A stretch of DNA of 64,000 nucleotides from Flectonema sp. DT1601 (taxonomy: Eukaryota), in assembly GCA_964019425.1 (NCBI GenBank), contig OZ025800.1, positions 744,001 to 808,000 of the forward strand, given 5' to 3'. The translations under genes and the position numbers were made by a program. Each line of letters opens with the position of its first letter. Position 1 is the first letter of the stretch. Below are positions 23,885 through 60,918 of this stretch, one piece after another. The notes beneath the pieces were generated by a model. It was not told the origin of the DNA. It made no database searches and worked only from the letters and a program-made list of their open reading frames with translations.

Positions 23885-26800
23885 TCAAGGCGGTCCGTGT
23901 CTGTGTCGTTTAGAGTCAGCCAGCATTGTGGCTTTCCTTTCTCTTATTAAAATAGAAAGCGGTTTTGAATGATCCAATATGTGATCTGGTGTACGTGACT
24001 TGGATGCATAACTGTCAAAGAGTGTCTGTGAAGAAGGTTGTATTCGGTTTACTTTCTCTGTCTTGAGTGAAGACAAGTTACTTTGTTCAACAAGTTGATT
24101 AGCAACACGAAGCTCTCTTCGAGATTTCGACGACATTGATGACACAAACAACGAGCTATCAACAAACGCTGACGGGTCAGCAATCTGTTTAGCTAGTGCC
24201 TTCGTTGTTAATTTCTTTGCTGCTTTGTCTAACAAGACATTAGTTGTTTCACCCAAACGTGTTTGTCTTGGAGTTGCTAGTAAGAATTCCAATCCCAACT
24301 TCCTTCCCAAAGGTTTATCTTGTTGAAGGGGAACGTCAAGAGGCGAAACCTTTCTACTTTGTTTGGCAATACTCGTCCCTGATGAATCAGGTCCCTTTCG
24401 ACTTGTCCCTCGGATGTAAAATGGTACAACAGGTGTTACAGTTTCTCCACAGAAACGACAAGCTGTAAAGAACGGAGAGATGTCTTCGTAGTTTTCGACT
24501 CGTTGATCTTTTCTATACAAATGTTTACTTCGAGGCGATACCAGTGATTGTTCCTTCGTAATTTGTGGATCAGCAGAACAATATTTTTTAATATATTCCG
24601 GTACACACCACTTATCAGTACCACAATTTGTTGTTTTCGATAATTCTGACTGATCGATATTCTGCTGCGAAGGTAACGATCCTAAATAATCACCTTCAGG
24701 AGTAAAACAGCTAATTGCTGAATATACACCTCCTTCACATGTGAATATACAGTCAAGTTCGTCAACTACTTTAGAACAAGTAAAGAAATCTCTTACCTTA
24801 GGATAATATCTATTGATTATAATTGATGAAGGAGGAATATTGTCCGTTGTTGAGATCACAGAGTGTTCAAATAATTCAATAATCGGTTGCTTTTCATTTA
24901 AAAGTGATCTCGCAACAGGAAATGGTTTAGTGTGACAAAGTTGAGTGTCAATTTTACAGTTCGATTGATTCAAATGATTTTTAATCTTTTGAATTGACCA
25001 ACGCTTTGTTGACTTTGTAAGTACACCCTCCAGTAGTGGTCGCATGATAGGGTTTGTTTGGAGGTCTGAAGGGATTCGTTTCTTTACAGATGATGTGTGT
25101 AAATCAAAGTTTTGTAGTGTTTTGGAATACCGATTTCCTTGTCCTTCATCAAATTGAGAGAACAGGTGTTCTTTCTTGAAGAATGACCACATGATAAGAC
25201 CTATTCCCCAAACATCAACCAACATCGATAATTCCGAAATTGCTTGTTTGCCACACTTCACTAATGCAAGTTCTGGAGGGCAATCCTTCCACAAAATATC
25301 TTTTAAAATAATCGCAATCCCATCCTGTGATCGTTTGTGAAGTTCTGGAAAATTATCATTCAGTTTGTCTGTCTGTTGAACTATGTGGGCATGAGATACA
25401 TCAATAATCTTCCATGTTCCCTTTATTCTTGCTATCTTATTAGGTGAAAGAAGAATTGCGATACCGTATCTACCTAAGTGTTCGAGACCATTTAAGATAT
25501 TCAATAAGATGTGTTGTATTTCTTGAGATGGTGATGACCTTTCTCTGGCGTAGGTTAGAAGGTCTGTGTCAAAAGGTTCTAAGAGATTATAATAAACAGG
25601 GACTCGATCTTGATTTAGTGAGATGCTATCGTTTAAAAACATTTGACTTTCAGACAATTGACTACACTTATCTGCAGAAGGCTGTTTTTTAAACATCGGA
25701 GCTAATGATCTGCACTTCGTCCTGCGAGATCGTTTCTCCGTAGGTGAGCTTGATTCTGACACTTGGAATGAGTGTCTCATGCTAAGTCGATTTTTATTTC
25801 CAGTAAAACTATGCGTTGCATCTCCTTGATATGTTGGCTTTCTTACTGATAAAGTTCTTGCATGAGATGACGTTCTTTTTGTAAATGGACACTTAACATA
25901 TGAGCATGACGCTGTGTTTTCATAGTCTTGTTCCTGACTAAGACATCCTTGAAAGCTATCTATCACTGAAACTATCTCGTCGGAATGAGTGATCCCAGAT
26001 AGAATTTCCTTTTCAACCAACCAACTGATGTTATTAGTTGTGGTTGTGAGGGAAAATCTAGATTTTGTACTGTGATCGTACGCAGTGAAAACTCTACAAT
26101 TCCAGACAGTATCTTGCTTTGAGTAGCGTCCATTTACTGATGGATGTCTATTTTGCCATAACAACCTATTCTCTTTATCATCAAACAAAGCAATCAATGT
26201 CGTTAATGATATCGTAGTTTGAACACCCTCTGCTGAACAAAGCAACTGTCTCGTATTATGAAGATAATTTAAGTAAAAAACATCACACGGGGACTCGAAC
26301 ACAAACCTCGTCAAATAGCAAAATCCTGGAAAGCTATAAAAATGAAGAACTCCGTTGCCCTCAGCTAATATAAACGATTGAGTCTGTTGTATAAATAGAC
26401 ATTGGGTAATTGGAAAGGTACACGTAATTGATTTTTTTAAGGTTTGATCGTCGACTTGCCAAAGTTCACAACTCCGCTTAGAAGCGACACATAAAAACTG
26501 TCCTGAAGTAGAACAGCGAATCCATGAGACAGAATCAAGTAGTGATTTCCAACTCAACAGTTCAACAAAGTCGTATATTTTTGAGTACTTCCGAATACTA
26601 ATCACACCAGATAGAGTTGCTATGACCAGTAGCTGAGATTCACTATTGCTACACTGATCAATTTTTGAATTACTTAACATGGTCAGAATTCCAACTACAG
26701 AGTCAGAACATGAGACTCTACGTCCCCATGACCCATTTAATAGAGACATGACTTGAATTGAGCCATCGATATCACCTAACATCAGATCCCTGTTATTATT

Positions 26801-28766
26801 TATCAGCACCGCTGCTGTTTTTTCACTACTGCTGAAGTGGCTATATGAACCCTGGAGCTCACCTGTTTGTTTTTTTCTTAATTTTTGGAATAAGTGACTA
26901 CATAAATTCAGAGTAAAACTAATTGTGTGTGAAAGACACCAATCCAGTCGATATGTTAATCAGGTAGCTATTCAACGAGGGATATTCTTACGAAACGCAA
27001 CAATAGGCGCAGACAGTACAATCACAAAAGCACGAAAAACGTGATTTTCTGAGACGAGTACACACATTACCCGACTACACATTATACGCTTCGTCGTCCC
27101 GGTCCAGGAAACTTAGCGAGAGACATGACACAATAAACTATTACAAAAATGCTATCCATACCTGTGGCAAGGTGCCATATAAAGATTCCATTCAAATTAA
27201 TTGTAACTATAGAACGTTGAGTGTCACTGTATAGTATATGTGTCATACTACCTTGAGGAGAAGGAGGTCCACTTCTCTTATTGCAGCTAAAAGATCGAAA
27301 ACGTTTTCCTACAGTAAGGATATTATGACTGTGAGAATCATACGTGAATGTTGTTAGTTGGCCAACAGGATACTTACTCTCAGATCCTCCTAATGTTTGA
27401 ATTGGGGTGAGGGTGCGCATATCCCATATAATTATTTTTCCCATGATGTCAGCACTTATGACTTCAGGGGTACTGTCAAATGCGTGAATTTTACAGAGAA
27501 GTTTATCGTGGCCTCGTAAGACGTGGGTTTGACTTGAGATGAATGGATTCCAACATAAGATATTTCTTCCATACCCAATTGAGAATATTATTCGATACTT
27601 TTGAGAATATGTAATTTGTGTTTTGACTGATGACTCGTGAGCATTCTTAACAGATCGGACTCTGAACGTCAGAATCTCATGTTGTTCATCTTCCCAGCCA
27701 ACATCCCATACGATAACTTTTCCATTCGCCTGACAAGTTATTAGCTGACCTAATTCTTGAACAAGCAATAAATCACATAACCATTCCTTACTACATTGAA
27801 CACGATGTAATAATGTTATTTTTCCTTGGTATGCGAAGATCAGAATAGCTCCGTCGGTTCCACCCGTGAACAATAATTTGTTTATCTCATCAACCGACGC
27901 GCACAATTGCGGCGCGTTCACTTTGAGCTTTTCCGTTGATGTAGACCTATCGAGGTTATCATTCCAAGCGTATAAATATCTGTTTACAATTATTTAAAAA
28001 AATCAAAATAAAAATAGTCAAGCAACAGCCAACGCCTTCCCAATATTAATTTTAAAAGAACAAATACATACCGATCAGCACAGCAAGCAACAATTTTTTG
28101 CATCGGTTGAAAATGATAAATGCTAAATACGGCTGCTGTTGGACCGATTAATTTGGTTACTATTGTTGCCTTTTTATTATCATCATTGATAGTAAACAGG
28201 TAAATGTCGGATGCACCGACAAGACAAAAAATTCGTAAATGTTGAAAATATTTCAAACACTCAATGTCTTCCCAATACAGTCCGACTCCCTGAATTTTTT
28301 TTCCAATTGTTGTGATTGTTGTTGAAGAAGTGTTTTGGGAAACATCCGAAGTTTCATCTTCAACGGACACACTTGATTGAATGACATCTTTAACTGCAGT
28401 GGTCGTATTGCTAAAAGTAATATCAGATGGAACATCACTATACAATCTCATCTGTTTAAGACTATTTGTTGTACTCAAGTCTATCACCAATGAACCAATG
28501 TCGTCCCAAGATATATGTTCATCACAATCTCTGTCAATTTGTTTGAATAATTCTAAAAGAGTATTTCTCTGTGAGTCGGAATACGATTTCACCTCCCCCA
28601 ACGATAAAGCAAATTTTGGAACAGCTTCATACACAGCTTGTTCAAATCCCGTGAAGTCAACAGGCTTAAATAGCAGTTTCTGCAGACATAATAATTGCTG
28701 CTTTTCAAATTTTTGAAGAAATAAGTGGACGAGATGTGTCCCATGAGTAGCATCGGCTCCCGCCAT
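23885..28766 (-). CDS. EF-hand + WD40-repeat protein (WDR49/EFCAB8-like layout) with C-terminal pseudokinase-like region, 1496 aa, 3 exons
   Basis: Exons 28766-28072, 27979-27162, 26862-23885 join in phase (4491 nt). EF loop DRDCDEHISWDD. WD repeats, e.g. LRGHDKLL...ISADIMGKIIIWD. Kinase C-lobe remnant CPPEL...VDVWGIGLIMW. Confidence 0.85.
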
Positions 28767-40992: not shown

Positions 40993-42162
40993 TTATAAAG
41001 AAAGAGAAGCAATCAACTGCTCTGTAAGATACTCATCGTCAATACTGAGAGGTGCTCCAGTACATCCGATAGCTTTGAGATGATTGAAATGTTTAACAGA
41101 ATCTTGAAGATCAACTGTTCCAAGCTGTCTAGGAAAATGATTAGGATCACAACCAGTGATGAGTGATGAAAGAGTACATCCCATAATAACAGATGGATGA
41201 CCAAGTGGAGGAAGAAGTGATTCAGAAGAAACCCATCTCTTTGGAGCATATAATATCTCTGTCTTCACTGATGATAGTCTAATTGGACCAGCTTCTGTAG
41301 CGACTACATCGTGTTGATTCTTCATTCGATTCCACATGTCATTTGTGTTAAAGATATGTGGGGCTGAGTCATCTATTACAATAGTTCCTTTTTGAAGTTT
41401 CTCAACGCTCAAAATACCTCCAATATTCGTAGCCCCTACGATGATGCTGCTTCTGTACACCTCACTGTTAACAGAAGCACCCGCAGTACTACAAGCAATT
41501 GTAACTTTGCCGTTATAACCTAAAACCGTTGTTATTTCTTCTTTAAGACTTTGAAGATCATGCTCACGTTGAGTAACATCACATAAAATAATTTCTTTTG
41601 AATGCGGCAATACGGTTACGACAAGTCGAAGAGCTGCAGCACCAATTGAACCCAAACCAATGAACGATAAGACTTCGGTTGATATGGCTCTTGAGAATAA
41701 TTCTACAGAATAAAGAATATTAATTGCAATACATGCCGTGGTTGTTGCATGACCAGTAGTGATAATCGGAGGTGATTGGTTCAATAGATCTGCTCCATGA
41801 GACGTTGCTGACGGGATCAAACCTGTCAAAGAGATACATTTAATTGAAAGACTATGAGCAAGTCGCATGGCATCGTCGATTAATTTTGTTATGTTGCAGC
41901 CTTCGTCGAATATCTCACTTTCGAATCTTGGTAGAATTAAAGTTGCTATCTTTCCGATTCCTTCAATTTCTGTTACACTCCCAACGAATACGGATTCCTC
42001 AAGGTACTTCTTCTTAACTATCTGTCTACCTTCTTCACTGTCAACCATTGAGTCATTTAGGTACCCCAATGCTCCTCCCACAACACCTGTAATCTCACCT
42101 ACAAGTATTTGATACACTAGACTCGTATCAGTTTGTGTTCTGTATCCTACTCCCTTCGTCAT
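40993..42162 (-). CDS. Acyl-ACP-reductase-like NAD(P)-dependent oxidoreductase (COG5322-type), 389 aa, intronless
   Basis: ISLTGLIPS, ITTGHATT, Rossmann FIGLGSIG, IIVGATN, GTIVIDDSAPH and late MGCTLSSL occur in the order seen in the cyanobacterial AAR family and related bacterial NRPS/PKS-associated reductase domains (recognised by eye). Confidence 0.8.
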   Translation of the reverse strand: MTKGVGYRTQTDTSLVYQILVGEITGVVGGALGYLNDSMVDSEEGRQIVKKKYLEESVFVGSVTEIEGIGKIATLILPRFESEIFDEGCNITKLIDDAMRLAHSLSIKCISLTGLIPSATSHGADLLNQSPPIITTGHATTTACIAINILYSVELFSRAISTEVLSFIGLGSIGAAALRLVVTVLPHSKEIILCDVTQREHDLQSLKEEITTVLGYNGKVTIACSTAGASVNSEVYRSSIIVGATNIGGILSVEKLQKGTIVIDDSAPHIFNTNDMWNRMKNQHDVVATEAGPIRLSSVKTEILYAPKRWVSSESLLPPLGHPSVIMGCTLSSLITGCDPNHFPRQLGTVDLQDSVKHFNHLKAIGCTGAPLSIDDEYLTEQLIASLSL

Positions 42163-52420: not shown

Positions 52421-55400
52421 CTATTCCTTATCAGAACTAGACTTTACAAGTGGAGCAAGCTCTCTTGCTCGTTGATTAGCTGGTGAAAGAGATCCCTCTG
52501 AGGGTTGGGAACTCTGTCGTAATGGAGGGAGAGGAGATCTTAATGGAAGAGGTACTTGTTGATCATCACCGTCATCGTCATGAGGTGGTTCAACTGTAAG
52601 AAGAGTCAGTGTATTCGTCTTTACTGCTGAGACAGCTAAGTTAGATTCCACAACAGTATTTGACAGTCCAATCGTTTCATCGAAATCCTCTTCGTCCGAC
52701 GTAGTATCAATAGACTTCGCTGTTTGTGGATCTAAACCACCTAGCGACCTACTCATCTCTAATTCTTCTCTCACAGTCACATCAAGAGGGTTCTTAACAC
52801 TTGGAGGCAATACAGGCATTCTTATACTGTTCGCAGTCAGTGTTGGTCTCCTCAGTGAAGGTTGAGTTGTCTAGTAATTGTTAATTTAAAAAAGATCATT
52901 ACATTCCAAACACACAAATAATAAATACATACAACTCTACGAGACTCCATCCTCCTACCAATGTATCTTGAGTATCTGTCATCAGCAATTTCTAAGACGG
53001 CCTGTTTTTATATTATTACTCACCTTGACCTTGTCGATGATGTTTAATTGAAAGAAAAGGTACGTTTAAAAAAAGAAAACAAAAAAAGGGAAACATATTC
53101 CGTCTTATCGACCAGAAGACGTTGTCGAGTCTGGTACTCGGAAAACTTGTTTAATTTTTTCCCGTTTGAGAATTCAGAAACGTGCAGCGTCTTTGCGAAG
53201 TATTCTCAAAAGGTTTACGACAACAGCACACCTTCCTAAACCCAGCAGATAACAAGGGATTGCTCTTTACTTTCCAAAGGGGAAAAGCATTATTATTTTC
53301 ATTAAGCGTAACAAGCCCCTACTTTACACCCTTATGGGTACAAGTATGATAACCAAATAAATAAAAACACAAACCTGTAAGCAATGAGGGTAATTATCAA
53401 CCGCCCAACTAAACCCACGCTGGTCTAAAACGTATACCTGACAATAAGTCTTTGCTGTGATGGTATATGGTGATGGAATGCCAAATAGTAAGGGAAGCTC
53501 ACCAAAGAACGCTCCCTCACTTAAGACAGAAGTTGAAGAATGAGACATTACAACACTACCTCTTGTGATCATATAGAAGAATGATGCAGGTTCACCATGA
53601 GTGATGATTACAGAATTAGGTGTGAATGCTTGAAGACGAAGTTTAGAAACAACGTCTGAAATAAAAAGATCATTTGCCTCATTATAAAGCATGGGAACAG
53701 ATTCTAACACATGAGCGTTCAAATGATACGACAGAGTTGATCTGAGATCTGCTGGGAGTGGCCAAGATAAAGCATCAAAGTCAGAACCAGTGTGATTCCC
53801 ATCAAGTAAGAAGTCATACTGACTAACGTGATATGTTCTTGTTGATCCCCACAAGAATCTAACGTATCCGATTACTTCTGCTCGGTACTGTGCTGGAAGT
53901 TTTCGTTCAACAAGAAAGATCTTTAGCTGCTCAACTAGTCGCTCATATTCTTTTTGATTAGGATTTGTAGAATCAAGTAAAACAGCAACATAAGCAATGA
54001 CGGTTGCCCAGACGGCAACACCTGCAAGTTGAGCTACCATGACCACTAGTGTCTGGGGATCACTCTGCGGCCAACGACAACCGTATCCCGACATTGCTCG
54101 TATTGCCCAATCAAAACAAGTTGTATATCTGTATAACAAATCCTTATCCTCAAAGGTGTTACTATCTAATTGAAAATATCTCAAATACTGATCACCATTA
54201 CCCTCCTCATCAATGTTTGATGTCCATAATATCCAATGTAATGCAGCAGCTGACATGTGAAGAATAAAGAACACTCCTAGTAATAGCTTTACGGCTTGGA
54301 CTCTAATTGGGGATATTTGTGACATGTGTCTAGCAACAAATGCGGTGAATAACTGATTAAATGATAACATGTTCAGTAGTCGATTGGCGCGAAAGGGAGG
54401 ATCCCAAATCATGTTAGCATCCCAAGCAAATAGAGCAGCAAGAAATTCTATCGGAAAACACGCTAGCACTGACACAGCAAATGCAACCGTTTTGTAGTAG
54501 TGTGGAGTACTTCGAAGGGTTGTTGCAATTGATATCCAGTAGACTGAAACATCTGCAACCCATTGGAGCACTGCCATAAATATCGAATATGGCAAATCAA
54601 ACCCAATATGTAAAGGAATATTAACACAATTAAATACTAACACTGCTATCTTTAGGGTATTCCATATATCTTTGTGAAGCAATCGAGAAGCTGCTCGTTT
54701 ATCATCTTTCTCTTGTTGTTCACTTCTTGTTACTAATGTTAACCTCCGTAGACGAACTTCCTTTCTCTTATCGAGGTTGGTTGACGCGCTGTTAAATTCA
54801 CCAATTGTTTGAAGCATTCCAGCGGTGTTGTCGTCATCCACTAATTCAACTAACTGAGCAAGTCTTCCATCTTTCCATTCTTCCATACTGGAGACGGGAA
54901 GTTTTTGTAGTGCGACAGCGAATATAGACTGCCTGAATTGATATAAATGTTCTGTACTGCTCTTAAAGTCGCTCCTCGGATGTGGTCCAATTCCCTGGAA
55001 TAATCCTCGACTGCGAAGCATTTCACCTGCTGAGACTGCCATCGTTTCAGTGATGTCAAAGCAGTCGACTAACCAAGCAACAACATCAGCCCCCACAAAT
55101 ATATTATCAACTTTGCTCATACAACCTGTTCGTTTCGAATGTAAGAAATGTTTTGATACGTGATTGCTGAAAACAGCAGCGAATCTTTCCAGTCCGGTTT
55201 CAGCTTTTTCTGCTGCTTTTTCAGCAGCTTTCCAGGCGTCTTCATCTACAATCTGTTGAGCAGGGCTAAATAAATTAGATGAAGATGATACCATTGTCAT
55301 TACAGGATCAGCTGCACTAAACACGTCGCGTGATTTCCTTCTTGCTGATGGGATGGCTGCCCTAATCAATTCAGCTAAGTTGCTATTTTCAGACTTTAAA

Positions 55401-57241
55401 GTTGCAGCAATAGATGGCCTGGGACCATGTCTAAAGGTAGGCATCGCGTCTGCGGGCTGAATGCAAGTGTCCGATTGATTGAGAGCGTCTTTAGTTCTTC
55501 CTGATAAGACGTTGTTTAAATGCTCCAAAAGCCATTTCATTGGCACTCCAGCTGGGGGACTCTCGCTCATGGACTCAGCGATTGCAACGGCGCCCTCATG
55601 CTCGCGAGCATTGACTGCGGAATTGATATCGAGTAATGGTTCTATTCTGGCATCCGCAGTTAAAACATAAACAGTTTTATGTGGACGTGGATTTGGAACA
55701 CCCTGAGGTTTTAATCCACCCTTCTCAGGCACAACTACATCAACAAGAGGAATAGCCCGAAGCCCACTTGGAGAACCATTCGGAATAGGAGATAAACAAG
55801 GTTCCCTATTTTGATTTGCCTGACCGGGTACTTCTAATGGATTGAATGATAAGACCTCAGCTCCTATTTGTCTTCCAAAAAGAGCCAAGTTTCTTGCAAT
55901 GTCACGCTGTGTTGATATAATACCGTGTACTAACGCACTCCTTCCTCTGACTCTACTCATTCCAGTAAGACAATCACCTGTTGATATACCAACACTCCAT
56001 GAGGGTTTTCTTTCAGTAATACTGCTGCTGTTGTGAGGTGCTTTGAACATTTGAACTAAACTTGAACAGAATGAAAGAATTCTTATATTCAATTCCTTGC
56101 CGCCAACCCACCAGACGTTGCAGCTGTTCGATCCAGCCCACTCTAGTCGGGCTCCGTATGCGTGACACATGTCCGCTATGCTCTCAAATGTCGTTGAGTT
56201 TTCAAAAGAAATATCTAACCTTTCTTTATAATCAACAACCACAGTTAAGAATGTACAGGTGTGACGCTTCCATGGTTCGAAGGTGACATTTCGTGAAAGG
56301 TTTGGAGTACCATGAGGATCGGTACTACTTCTCTCTGATGCTTTATGTGAAAGTGTTCGAAGAGGAAGCGGAGTAGTATCAGATCGATCCCTTGAGAAGG
56401 TTCTAGATGAAGGAGATGGTATTGTAAAGTTAACTCTTGCTCTTGCAGTCGCCCCCTCACTTAAGTGAGAACCAGTAGAGACACAAAGTGGGTCGACTTC
56501 TGGTGCACTCAAATGAAGTGGTGGCATTCCTGGTGATAATACAGCAGGGAGTGGTCCAGCTTCAGTACCTGATGGCTCTGCGAATATAAAAGCTCTTCCT
56601 GATCTTCTTCCAACAGCTGGCGCTGAACACATCTCTCCATCTTCATCTTCTCCTATAGGGGTAACAAATTCAGTGTTGAGTCGATCACATTCACCGAAAT
56701 CATTTATAGCTAGTTGGAGGTGTTCAATAATTCGAGTTCTGGCACATTGAGCACCAAAACCAACGCACTTAATTTCATGTGGTATAAGTGGATTATATAT
56801 CTCCATACAGGTGTCAGGGAGTTCAGGTATGAACCCCCAAGCTGCTTCACGACCAATTGATACCAAATGATGAGATAAATCACGTAGAGGAATAGAAAGG
56901 GTTTTATCAATAAATAATTTCAACAAAAAGCACAACGACAACGACAGAACTAAAGCCACAGCAACAGCTGGCCCAACCATACTAACATCTGGTGAGGAAG
57001 AACACGAAGACGATAGTTGTGAGCAAAGAAGATCAGCCTCATTAAGTCCTAATAAGGTACTACTCATGACTTTCTCAACACACGAAAATTGATTATAATT
57101 TATACTTCCTCGTGAGATCTGCTCAATCCCGAGAGCTGCTCCGATTGTCACTAACGAGATTCCAACCTGCGCAGCGAATATAATTCGCGAGGACTGATAT
57201 CCACGAATGTCCTCCATCTGAACATCCTCCTCTGAGAACAT
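52421..57241 (-). CDS. Fusion protein: 2TM + HAMP-like + degenerate class III nucleotide cyclase + DEP + 6TM cation channel + cyclic-nucleotide-binding domain, 1461 aa, 3 exons
   Basis: Exons 57241-53375, 53001-52933, 52870-52421 are all phase 0. DEP FVGADVVAWL...AVSAGEMLRSRGLF...LYQF. S4-like FRANRLL. Pore FDWAIRAMSGYG. C-linker LPAQYRAEVIGY...LPADLR. CNBD IITHGE...GAFFGELPLL. Confidence 0.9.
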
Positions 57242-58308: not shown

Positions 58309-59214
58309 CTACGAGAAAATGGCTATAGAATTCCTTATAGTCATATTACAAATAGGGCATTCTGTGATTGTCTTACTGCAGAGAGTGCATGCAGCCCAAT
58401 GACCACATGGTGAGAATGCTATCTCACGAGGGTTGTCATTACACACTGCACACTTTGGTTTACAAACATCATCCGATGAGGGTGATTTTAAATCTAATTG
58501 ACTTGTCTCAGATAATAAGATTTCATCCGCATCTTCAATTTTCCGTTGCTGTTCTTGCAAATCAGATTCTTCCTTTGCTCGTCTTGCCATCTGAATACGA
58601 CAAACCTCTCTGTGACTGGTATAAAAAGTTGGGTGAATCTGAAGTTTACAAACTGCACATTTATTCACCGCCTTACCCGATACGTATAAATGTTCCCTTA
58701 CTTGCTCTCGACACATTGGACAGGTTGTTATTTTCGAAGCACACCTTTTACAACAAGACCAATGGCCACATGGTACGAATGCTACTGAACGCTGTTTCGT
58801 AAGACAAATAACACATTCATCTCCTTCTTCAAAAGATGACTCAGAAGATGATGCGACTGACGGTGTTTGTTGTCTGGCCTGCTGTTGAATTCGGCATACC
58901 TCAGTGTGACCTTCAAAAAGGGTCGGGTGGATGTATTCTAAACAGATCTGACACTGCATTGGTCTATTTAATAAATATTCCAATCCAGAACTAAATGCAG
59001 CGATGTTATTCATATCTATCGCAACTGATTGACCGTTCAAAGCTGCTTCAAGATTTAATGCCCCAACTGAAACAGATACACCTGGCTGATCAGATCTTGG
59101 CTGATCAGTTCCCCGTTGAGGAGATACTTTCCGGGTAATATGAAGAGCAAAAGCCATCACTGCAAGTGCCGCTGCGATTAAGCCTATAAACAGTGCATAC
59201 ATCATCATCATCAT
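58309..59214 (-). CDS. Membrane-anchored double RING-HC E3 ligase-like protein, about 301 aa
   Basis: N-terminal TM. RINGs CVICLTKQRSVAFVPCGHWSCCKRCASKITTCPMCR and CAVCNDNPREIAFSPCGHWAACTLCSKTITECPICN. Each is preceded by a C-x2-C-x11-H-x3-C finger. Confidence 0.92.
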   Translation of the reverse strand: MMMMMYALFIGLIAAALAVMAFALHITRKVSPQRGTDQPRSDQPGVSVSVGALNLEAALNGQSVAIDMNNIAAFSSGLEYLLNRPMQCQICLEYIHPTLFEGHTEVCRIQQQARQQTPSVASSSESSFEEGDECVICLTKQRSVAFVPCGHWSCCKRCASKITTCPMCREQVREHLYVSGKAVNKCAVCKLQIHPTFYTSHREVCRIQMARRAKEESDLQEQQRKIEDADEILLSETSQLDLKSPSSDDVCKPKCAVCNDNPREIAFSPCGHWAACTLCSKTITECPICNMTIRNSIAIFS

Positions 59215-59591
59215 TGATGGAGTACTGTTTTCTTTTTGAAGATATAATATTACAACTACTGTACAAAGGAACACCTATCATTATAAACACCACACTGCTT
59301 CCCAACTATTAACATGCTTCTTATTCCCCTGTAAGTAAGGAAGTATCAAAAGTAACATATGAACCATATTATTAAATGCGCCACACTGCTGTCGTCAGGC
59401 TGGATAGATGGGCCGAGCAGCGGCGGTCGCCATAAACTAACAAATTGATAAGACTGAAGACTTGACTGACAAGTTAAGTCTTTCGAGCGGATGCCTCAAA
59501 TGGAAAAGAAAATTGTTATTTCAAAGAAAATCGAAAGGCACAACCCTCAGACAGGGAATACATAAACCCAAACAGAAAAGACGTAATTTCT

Positions 59592-60918
59592 TTAGGTCGT
59601 TTCATTTATAGTTGCGTCTGATGGCGCTGCTCCGCCTGAAAGGTCGAGGTCTCCAACAGCTACTGCCTCGTGTGTTTGAGTTGTGTTATAACTTTGGCAC
59701 TCAGGACATTTCATTGCAATGAAGTGAAGTGGAACGGTACTCTTACGCAAACAATCATTACAAATGATTGTTGCTTTATGAGATGCGAACTCTGCAGGCA
59801 TCGGATTCATTGCCACTTCTGTTGCTATCCGACTACCGCTTTCCGAATCTCGAGAGATAGTTTTCTTACAAAGTGGACATCCCAGCTGTCCAGAATCTGT
59901 TAACTTCTTTTTGCATACATCCTGTTAGGTTTTATGTAATTATATTTTCTTTAAATAACTGAGATCAGTATTGCGCATATCATAAAGTAAAAAAAAGATA
60001 AAAAAGTTTAAAACACACATGAATGAAGTGACCGCAGTTCATTAAATCGACTTTCTCGTAGCTGCTGTGGAGATCTTCCAAACAAACAGGGCACGAATTT
60101 AAACCTCCCTGATTGCATTTATGATTTTGTAGTTTAGTTGACCAACACGCGTTACATTTATCGCAGTGAGAATAGTCTGATTTTCCAATTCCTCCGTCGC
60201 CTTTTCTGCACATTCCGCATTGTGCGCAATGCCAAACGAGGTCTTTAGGAGCTCCTTCAGGAATGTTCATCCAGAGATGGCAAGGTTCACAGTAGTAGTC
60301 TGCAAAAGTAATTTTACACTTGCAGCATGACGCTGCTGCTGGTTGATATTCATCACAGTCACCACACTGAATGTGAGTTACCTTAAACCTATCTAAATCA
60401 TGATCTTCCTCAGCATCATGACAAAATCTACATGCAGCTAAAGATGTACACGTTGAACACTGAATAAGACATTTACGTGAGTAGTGTTGGCATCCGTTGT
60501 ACGGCTTTTCAAATGTTCTCGGCAGCTTTGGAACATCAGGTTTCGCAAAGGCGCTTACAGTAGCCCTGACATCATCACCGTCTTCTATGGAAACCTTTTC
60601 AAGAATTTCGAGATCTGCTGCTGCTGCTAAAACATTACTTCTTCCTAAGTGATGTTCAATTCTTAATCTTAATGCTTCAATTAAATAACTTTCTTCATCA
60701 ACTGTTCTGACAGATGTTGTACTCAGAGGTAATATAACTTTCGTAAGTGTTTCACAAGAGGCATCCCACTTGGCAGCAGCTTGTTGGCACTTCGCAATAC
60801 CAATTAGATTGTGAACTCTTTGCTCTCTAGTGATGTGCTCTCTAGCCAGTCCCGTCATGTAGCCAGCAATAGCGGCATCGATGTCTCCTCTTGAGCGAAG
60901 TTCGTCGGGAGATGTCAT
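59592..60918 (-). CDS. RCHY1: Pirh2/RCHY1-like E3 ligase (CHY, CTCHY, RING-H2, zinc ribbon) with N-terminal TPR-like region, 409 aa, 2 exons
   Basis: GCQHYSRKC...CRFCHD; ICNDC...HFIAMKCPECQSYNT. Intron 60018-59922 restores the RING CPVC...CGHFIH|DVC...CPLC. Confidence 0.93.

What the first reader, a model, noticed from the sequence alone, without database searches (positions are those of the whole stretch)
53480..56275. Both ends of the cyclic-nucleotide circuit in the fusion look disabled
Seen: in the cyclase-like domain the KxIGD position reads EWAGSN (metal-binding Asp absent) and the GDTVNxASR position reads STQRDIARNL, while the SVGISTG...G strand motif is kept. The CNBD phosphate-binding cassette reads FGELPLLFGIPSPYTI and lacks the Arg that binds the cyclic phosphate. 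Established: KCNH channels have CNBD homologs that lack this Arg and are not cNMP-gated. Inference: matched degeneration suggests conformational coupling from sensor to gate rather than a diffusible messenger.
Basis: partly seen in the sequence, partly recalled or inferred. Interest (0 to 1): 0.7.

Follow-up and report, generated by a model that had tools for sequence, protein, structure and literature searches.

The report
Dead-cyclase ion-channel fusion of diplonemids
A gene, likely from a marine diplonemid protist, joins a predicted cAMP-enzyme-like domain that lacks its catalytic residues to an ion-channel-type protein whose cAMP pocket lacks its key arginine; all relatives found share both losses, so the channel likely works without cyclic nucleotides, probably through protein contact, which is untested.

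Summary
Observation confirmed and extended; interpretation only partly supported. The gene (minus strand, three exons, 57241-52421, about 1461 aa) encodes 2 TM helices, a class III cyclase-like domain, DEP, a 6TM channel and a CNBD. The CNBD Arg is Ser in register with SthK and is followed by Pro. The cyclase assignment is weak but consistent; both metal Asp, the Asn and the Arg are absent. In 7 of 7 full-length relatives (33-84% identity in the channel) Asp1, the cyclase Arg and the CNBD Arg are missing. cNMP synthesis and cNMP gating are therefore unlikely. A 'sensor-to-gate' chain is not shown. The extracellular loop and linkers are unconserved, the match is one inherited event, and Arg-less euglenozoan CNBDs can bind nucleosides (PMC10959531). 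Best guess: a KCNH-like channel with a docked pseudo-cyclase. I found no published description.

The parts
53375..57241 (-). Exon 1 of the fusion gene (aa 1-1289)
   Evidence: ORF; 79% identical to the Flectonema neradi transcript protein P0006; GT donor at 53374
53002..53374 (-). Intron 1 (373 nt, GT-AG), predicted; the ORF reads into it
   Evidence: D. ambulator isoform P0004 diverges at the same residue; no reads available
52933..53001 (-). Exon 2 (23 aa), predicted; encodes the CNBD C-helix
   Evidence: matches P0006 just after YPHC (E 5.6e-05)
52871..52932 (-). Intron 2 (62 nt, GT-AG), predicted
52421..52870 (-). Exon 3 (149 aa low-complexity tail and stop), predicted
   Evidence: 44% identical to the P0006 tail, E 7e-24
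56909..57184 (-). Two N-terminal hydrophobic helices (aa 20-38, 93-111) with a variable loop
   Evidence: hydropathy; 4 of 92 columns invariant
56702..56908 (-). HAMP-like segment (aa 112-180), unproven
   Evidence: position after TM2; Pfam none; hhalign against 2 bacterial HAMPs E 0.13, first helix only
55652..56272 (-). Pseudo-cyclase: class III cyclase-like domain (aa 324 to about 530); Asp1 site Val335, Asp2 site Ser371 or Asn372, Asn site Asp447, Arg site Asn451
54935..55129 (-). DEP domain (aa 705-769)
   Evidence: Pfam PF00610, E 8.2e-09, above cut-off
53966..54670 (-). Six-helix channel domain (aa 858-1092); S4 with only Arg951 and Arg954
54068..54109 (-). Pore helix end and filter WAIRAMSGYGCRWP (aa 1045-1058), two residues shorter than SthK, no Thr at the TVGYG position
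   Evidence: 17 of 26 columns invariant in 4 orthologs
53375..53965 (-). C-linker and CNBD beta-roll (aa 1093-1289)
   Evidence: Pfam PF00027 E 1e-13
53459..53506 (-). Phosphate-binding cassette with Arg->Ser1257, Pro1258 and Pro1250

Best explanation
The protein is a CNBD-family channel subunit fused to a predicted cyclase-fold domain that lacks the catalytic residues, and it likely neither makes nor binds cAMP or cGMP; the dead cyclase would instead act as a contact module that docks on the cytoplasmic side of the channel and tunes gating, as the N-terminal eag domain does in KCNH channels. Shown in sequence: the domain order, the missing residues at both ends, their absence in all 7 members, and strong conservation of pore, S6 and C-linker/CNBD. 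Inferred from family knowledge: tetramer assembly, no cyclase activity (also not as half of a heterodimer, because both the Asp pair and the Arg are gone), and no cNMP gating. Inferred and untested: ion conduction, non-K+ selectivity, and docking of the pseudo-cyclase or DEP domain on the CNBD. The N-terminal hairpin is more likely a membrane anchor than a ligand sensor. History (inferred): a 2TM receptor cyclase gene fused to a CNBD channel gene, and both cNMP functions were lost before the known members diverged.
For: CNBD Arg site is S,S,S,S,S,N,S and the next residue is Pro in 7 of 7, while Gly-Glu is kept in 7 of 7. A Pro there removes a backbone amide that binds the cyclic phosphate (recalled, no call). 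Cyclase Asp1 site V,V,K,K,R,K,H; Arg site N,N,E,E,A,A,A; Asn site D in 6 of 7. A profile of the pseudo-cyclase found 6 proteins at E<=0.001 among 1.84 billion representatives. All 6 belong to this family: 4 run through to the CNBD, and 2 are shorter products from species with a full-length form. So the domain was not seen apart from this channel. The domain keeps invariant core residues (W324, Y338, F352, E367, W368, G370, W378, W415, G427, A453) at 19-30% identity, so it is maintained as a fold. Precedent: KCNH CNBHDs lack the Arg and are regulated by a docked N-terminal domain (PMC5806680 sections 12-13); GORK is cNMP-insensitive (PMC11861651 passages).
Against: No direct evidence of contact between the domains. 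The KCNH intrinsic-ligand motif [YF]NL is absent after the C-helix in 6 of 6 proteins checked and no PAS domain was found. The pseudo-cyclase is much less conserved (17% invariant columns) than the C-linker/CNBD (40%), which is not what a tight interface would predict. The cyclase fold rests on a pLDDT-40 model and profile E-values of 0.002-0.015. The altered filter leaves open that the subunit does not conduct. Only 7 sequences, one lineage.
Confidence: 0.45

Rival explanations
1. No functional match: the two losses are independent. The pseudo-cyclase is a scaffold or dimerisation relic with partners elsewhere, and the channel part is gated by something else (lipid, voltage, Ca2+/partner protein) or is a silent, modulatory subunit of a heteromeric channel.
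For: Long variable linkers (118-680 aa between pseudo-cyclase and DEP). Arg-less CNBDs occur without any cyclase in KCNH and plant channels. Filter and S4 are also non-canonical in 7 of 7. An earlier unchecked note (e1-636539) reports large pseudo-cyclase receptor families in Discoba, so dead cyclases may be common there.
Against: The domain is retained in every full-length member and was not found outside the fusion. The pore is the most conserved segment (65% invariant), which argues against a decaying pore.
Confidence: 0.3
2. The CNBD binds a different diffusible ligand, for example a purine nucleoside, and gates the channel; the pseudo-cyclase may bind a small molecule without turning it over.
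For: Trypanosomatid PKA-R (same phylum) replaced the Arg with Thr/Asn and binds inosine, guanosine and adenosine; its Glu->Ala mutant still responds to inosine at 28 uM (PMC10959531 Table 2). Gly-Glu is invariant here and a full C-helix is present. A cyclase-like ATP-binding protein exists (PDB 6yii, title).
Against: The nucleoside-specifying Glu (E311/E435) is P,P,S,S,P,P,P here. The cyclase base-binding site is an invariant Trp in the ungapped register, which would more likely fill the pocket (inference).
Confidence: 0.2
3. The circuit is still live: the domain makes a cyclic nucleotide with non-standard residues or as half of a heterodimer, and the CNBD binds it weakly at high local concentration.
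For: Individually inactive cyclase domains can form active heterodimers (PMC12264004 passages). P0012 keeps Asp at the Asp2 site (ungapped register) and Asn at the Asn site. Basic residues at the Asp1 site in 5 of 7 and an invariant Arg/Lys at position 446 could contact phosphates.
Against: A heterodimer half must supply either the Asp pair or the Asn/Arg pair; 0 of 7 members has either complete pair.
Confidence: 0.05

Closest known systems
SthK / LliK / HCN / CNG channels (CNBD channel superfamily; best PDB match SthK, E 8e-26)
   Same: 6TM, pore, C-linker, CNBD with FGE cassette and C-helix
   Different: Cassette Arg absent; filter two residues shorter and without Thr; extra N-terminal 2TM, pseudo-cyclase and DEP
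KCNH channels (EAG, ERG, ELK)
   Same: Arg->Ser in the CNBD (rEAG1 Ser630, PMC5806680); a folded N-terminal domain that could dock on it
   Different: No PAS/eag domain, no [YF]NL intrinsic ligand, S4 with two Arg only, no K+ signature; no KCNH chain among the top 60 PDB sequence matches
Plant Shaker-type CNBHD channels (GORK, SKOR, KAT)
   Same: cNMP-insensitive CNBD homology domain (PMC11861651); sequence matches at E 1e-12 to 1e-14
   Different: These are K+ channels with ankyrin tails and no cyclase-like domain
Euglenozoan/Naegleria TM-HAMP-class III cyclases (PMC6366073 passage)
   Same: 2TM, HAMP-like segment, cyclase-fold domain at the N-terminus
   Different: Catalytic residues absent, 113-156 aa linker between HAMP-like segment and cyclase, fused to a channel
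Alveolate ion channel/adenylyl cyclase fusions (Paramecium, Plasmodium ACalpha; PMC12414865 passage)
   Same: Channel domain and class III cyclase domain in one chain
   Different: Those are active cyclases controlled by the channel; cyclase C-terminal and no CNBD (recalled). Here the cyclase-like domain is N-terminal and dead, and a CNBD follows the pore
Trypanosomatid PKA-R nucleoside-binding CNB domains (PMC10959531)
   Same: Euglenozoan CNBD with the Arg replaced by a small polar residue
   Different: Their specifying Glu is Pro or Ser here; they regulate a kinase

Membership tests
Class III nucleotidyl cyclase | Cyclase palm fold | tested here: met
   Weakly: VIA 9 of top 10 rows cyclases, Z 7.8-9.0; Foldseek 27 of 36 rows, none E<=0.001; hhalign above 100 of 100 shuffles; model pLDDT 40; no Pfam or PDB sequence hit
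Class III nucleotidyl cyclase | First metal-binding Asp (beta1) | tested here: not met
   V,V,K,K,R,K,H (register). A two-residue shift gives D,D,R,R,S,R,Q
Class III nucleotidyl cyclase | Second metal-binding Asp (GD) | tested here: not met
   Window Ser371 or Asn372; across 7: S,S,G,S,N,N,N or N,N,T,A,A,D,S
Class III nucleotidyl cyclase | Base-specifying Lys (AC) or Glu (GC) | tested here: inconclusive
Class III nucleotidyl cyclase | NxxxR transition-state pair | tested here: not met
   Asn site D in 6 of 7, N in 1; Arg site N,N,E,E,A,A,A
Class III nucleotidyl cyclase | Head-to-tail dimer and measured cyclase activity | not testable with these tools
   Activity needs an assay; the dimer was not modelled
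CNBD channel superfamily | 6TM + re-entrant pore + C-linker + CNBD | tested here: met
   (Foldseek E 2e-15 to SthK)
cNMP-gated channels (SthK, HCN, CNG) | Phosphate-binding Arg in the beta-roll | tested here: not met
   Ser in 6 of 7, Asn in 1, followed by Pro in 7 of 7
K+-selective CNBD channels | T/S-V-G-Y/F-G filter at normal pore-loop length | tested here: not met
   Two residues short against SthK and P0005; Thr site M,M,M,M,V,L,V; last Gly is G,G,G,G,A,S,A
KCNH channels | Arg replaced (Ser) in the CNBHD | tested here: met
KCNH channels | Tyr/Phe-Asn-Leu intrinsic ligand after the C-helix | tested here: not met
   0 of 6 proteins in the 50 residues examined
KCNH channels | N-terminal PAS (eag) domain | tested here: not met
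   No PAS family in Pfam scans of P0001, P0002, P0003, P0011-P0013
KCNH channels | N-terminal domain docks on the CNBHD | not tested
   No complex prediction was obtained
Trypanosomatid nucleoside-binding CNB | Glu two residues after the cassette Glu (E311/E435) | tested here: not met
   P,P,S,S,P,P,P
TM-HAMP receptor cyclases | HAMP domain after TM2 | tested here: inconclusive
   No Pfam hit; hhalign E 0.13 over 23 columns against only 2 bacterial HAMPs
Alveolate channel/cyclase fusions | Active cyclase in the same chain as the channel | tested here: not met
   Catalytic residues absent; family description from a PMC12414865 passage

The most novel reading that the evidence does not exclude
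A fused cyclase-to-channel circuit in which the messenger was dropped and replaced by hard wiring: the dead cyclase is the gating ligand of the cNMP-blind CNBD of the same tetramer, and the pore, with its Thr-less, two-residue-short, Cys/Arg-containing filter, has a selectivity not yet described among CNBD channels.
Probability: 0.2. Interest if true: 0.8.

Novelty: new variant of a known kind. Interest (0 to 1): 0.55.

Why it matters
Each part has precedent (cNMP-blind CNBDs, dead cyclases, channel-cyclase fusions), but I found no description of this combination, and the public annotation of the D. papillatum member ('Cyclic nucleotide-gated cation channel subunit A') is probably wrong about gating. 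If the pseudo-cyclase gates the pore by contact, it is a natural case of a second-messenger step replaced by direct coupling, and a further independent way to run a CNBD channel without cNMP. The invariant non-canonical filter is a ready test of how pore-loop length sets selectivity. Diplonemids are abundant marine protists whose signalling is little studied.

Tried and rejected
No whole genome is held for the window, so paralogs and possible cyclase partners in this organism could not be counted; within the window no second cyclase-like frame was found among 678 stop-to-stop frames. No RNA holder was listed, so splicing rests on GT-AG sites and ortholog transcripts. Two metagenome scans and one prokaryote-genome scan with P0005 gave no confirmed locus. 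tblastn of the cyclase-like domain against plasmids gave 3 chance-level hits. The complex prediction (pseudo-cyclase with C-linker/CNBD) was not available, so binding has no verdict. An HMM from 8 bacterial cyclases does not detect the domain (E 0.05-0.16). Rejected: (a) pseudogene or decay of one copy, because the frame is intact and the losses are shared by 7 of 7; (b) my own idea that invariant Glu367 is a retained guanylyl-cyclase specificity residue, because 3 of 3 hhalign alignments shown place Trp368 at that site; (c) my starting guess that this domain belongs to a large degenerate family found with many partners, because the profile search found it only in this fusion, though more distant dead cyclases would fall below its reach; (d) the hydrophobic ORF end as a ninth TM helix, because it is intron read-through. 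The channel model (pLDDT 59, pore region under 50) says nothing about filter geometry. The first fold attempt had a frame slip. Earlier-findings look-ups by sequence, by place and by one word set were empty.
Full report
1. The gene. The finding lies in a 1305-codon ORF at 53324-57241 on the minus strand. The window is eukaryotic: the long ORFs listed lie on one strand and several run into introns. The named relatives are all diplonemid proteins: Flectonema neradi P0006 (79% identity), Diplonema ambulator P0007 (42%) and D. papillatum P0003 (34%). The organism is therefore probably a diplonemid (inference). The ORF reads into an intron after HCLQ. GT-AG sites give exon 2 at 53001-52933 and exon 3 at 52870-52421, about 1461 aa in all. 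The Flectonema transcript matches both exons, and a D. ambulator isoform diverges at the same residue. Splicing was not checked with reads.

2. Architecture. Two hydrophobic helices (aa 20-38, 93-111), a HAMP-like segment (inconclusive), a linker, the cyclase-like domain (aa 324 to about 530), a linker, DEP (Pfam E 8e-09), six TM helices with a pore, C-linker and CNBD (Pfam E 1e-13). The channel half matches SthK at E 8e-26 by sequence and 2e-15 by fold.

3. CNBD end. The cassette aligns without gaps to SthK and the phosphate-binding Arg is Ser1257. PMC5806680 (section 12) names this Arg as the cyclic-phosphate contact and reports Ser630 in rat EAG1, which does not bind cNMP. In 7 full-length members the site is Ser six times and Asn once, the next residue is Pro in 7 of 7, and Gly-Glu is kept in 7 of 7. 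That the Pro removes a phosphate-binding backbone amide is recalled, not from a call. The KCNH [YF]NL intrinsic ligand is absent in 6 of 6 proteins with a C-helix.

4. Cyclase end. Sequence searches miss the domain (Pfam; PDB). ESM Atlas features point to Guanylate_cyc at 0.91-0.93 with 139-163 shared features, a range the tool calls distant or chance. A four-sequence AlphaFold2 model has pLDDT 40. Its top 5 VIA matches are all class III adenylyl cyclases (Z 8.0-9.0; 9 of the top 10), and 27 of 36 listed Foldseek rows are cyclases, although the top 3 are aspartate kinase and none reaches E 0.001. hhalign against 8 of the 10 cyclase domains found on S. meliloti pSymA (L005 dropped for a frame problem, L011 for being short) scores 27.4 against a shuffled mean of 13.3, with 0 of 100 shuffles reaching it; only the 3 of 12 sliding windows that overlap the domain score above 22. 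With 7 members the score is 26.7 against a shuffled maximum of 17.4 in 40. I accept the fold as likely, not proven. At the GD turn the alignments put Trp368 at the Lys site, not Glu367. The one member with Asp2 (P0012) is also the one with Asn, which supports the ungapped register. No member has a complete Asp pair or a complete Asn/Arg pair, so complementation in a heterodimer of the kind described in PMC12264004 (passages) is unlikely.

5. The family. Three word-based searches found only P0002-P0004 and one distant oomycete channel. The pseudo-cyclase profile against 1.84 billion representatives gave 6 hits at E<=0.001: three from the named diplonemids and three unnamed proteins, P0011-P0013, with 19-24% identity in the domain and 33-35% in the channel, the same layout, and their own well-supported clade (DEP reached Pfam's threshold in 2 of the 3). 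Their organism is unknown. The seven counted are P0001, P0006, P0007, P0003 and P0011-P0013; isoforms or fragments P0002, P0004 and P0010 were left out. So the domain was seen only in this fusion, and both losses are ancestral to the family.

6. The pore loop is two residues shorter than in SthK and in the oomycete channel P0005. The Thr of the K+ signature is Met, Val or Leu, the residue after the motif is an invariant Cys, and S4 has two Arg. PMC7576140 (passages) says large departures from TVGY/FG are rare among eukaryotic CNBD channels; the words Euglenozoa and Discoba do not occur in its text. Yet the pore is the most conserved part: 65% of columns invariant in 4 orthologs, against 40% for C-linker and CNBD, 28% for DEP, 17% for the cyclase core and 4% for the N-terminal hairpin. 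The protein is under selection, but K+ selectivity and even conduction cannot be assumed.

7. Mechanism. Loss of cNMP synthesis and cNMP gating is well supported (my estimate 0.9). Direct coupling is not shown. The putative sensor loop varies from about 7 to 114 aa, and the linkers flanking the pseudo-cyclase are 113-156 and 118-680 aa, which argues against a rigid receptor-to-gate chain. Docking across a long linker, as for the KCNH eag domain (PMC5806680 section 13), remains the most economical reason why the fold is kept in every member, and I commit to it at 0.45. Rivals: independent losses with a scaffold or silent-subunit role (0.3); another diffusible ligand, as in trypanosomatid PKA-R, although its specifying Glu is absent here (0.2; PMC10959531 passages and Table 2); a live circuit (0.05). 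'Matched' degeneration is a single inherited state and cannot be tested as a correlation with these sequences.

8. Novelty. Ten literature searches listed no paper whose title or abstract describes this fusion; the library lacks most subscription journals and I read no supplements, where a domain table might list it. Papers seen: PMC5806680 (sections 12, 13, passages), PMC7576140 (first fifth and passages), PMC4215837 (first quarter), and passages of PMC11861651, PMC6366073, PMC12264004, PMC10959531 and PMC12414865. Earlier unchecked notes of this scan describe discoban pseudo-cyclase receptors and bacterial pseudo-cyclase genes beside MscS channels with Arg-less CNBDs; they are leads only, but they suggest the pairing may have arisen more than once. 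Verdict: real, family-wide, apparently undescribed variant of the CNBD channel superfamily; mechanism open. Interest 0.55.

Noticed in passing
window 54068-54109 (-): Non-canonical, highly conserved pore loop (two residues short, no Thr, invariant Cys, Arg in the pore helix in 6 of 7); selectivity unknown. Possibly the most unusual feature of the protein.
   Followed up: partly
window 52421-53374 (-): The gene continues through two predicted introns; the 132-aa ORF at 52421-52819 is its last exon, not a separate gene. The tail begins with an SLRRP[TS] motif shared by all four named orthologs, a possible phosphorylation site.
   Followed up: partly
window 40993-42162 (-): 389-aa ORF with no Pfam hit but a match to the N-terminal part of prodigiosin PigE (NCBIfam E 4e-08, far below cut-off): a bacterial-type reductase-like domain in a eukaryote, possible gene transfer.
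   Followed up: no
window 23885-28766 (-): Three adjacent ORFs, probably exons of one gene with WD40-like repeats and a degenerate kinase-like domain (Pkinase E 2.4e-07, below cut-off, N-lobe not matched).
   Followed up: no
window 58309-60918 (-): Two neighbouring zinc-finger genes: a membrane-anchored double RING protein and a CHY-zinc-finger protein with an extra N-terminal region.
   Followed up: no
P0012 (unnamed relative): The least degenerate pseudo-cyclase of the family: keeps Asp at the second metal site and the catalytic Asn, but not Asp1 or Arg; best candidate for residual nucleotide binding.
   Followed up: partly
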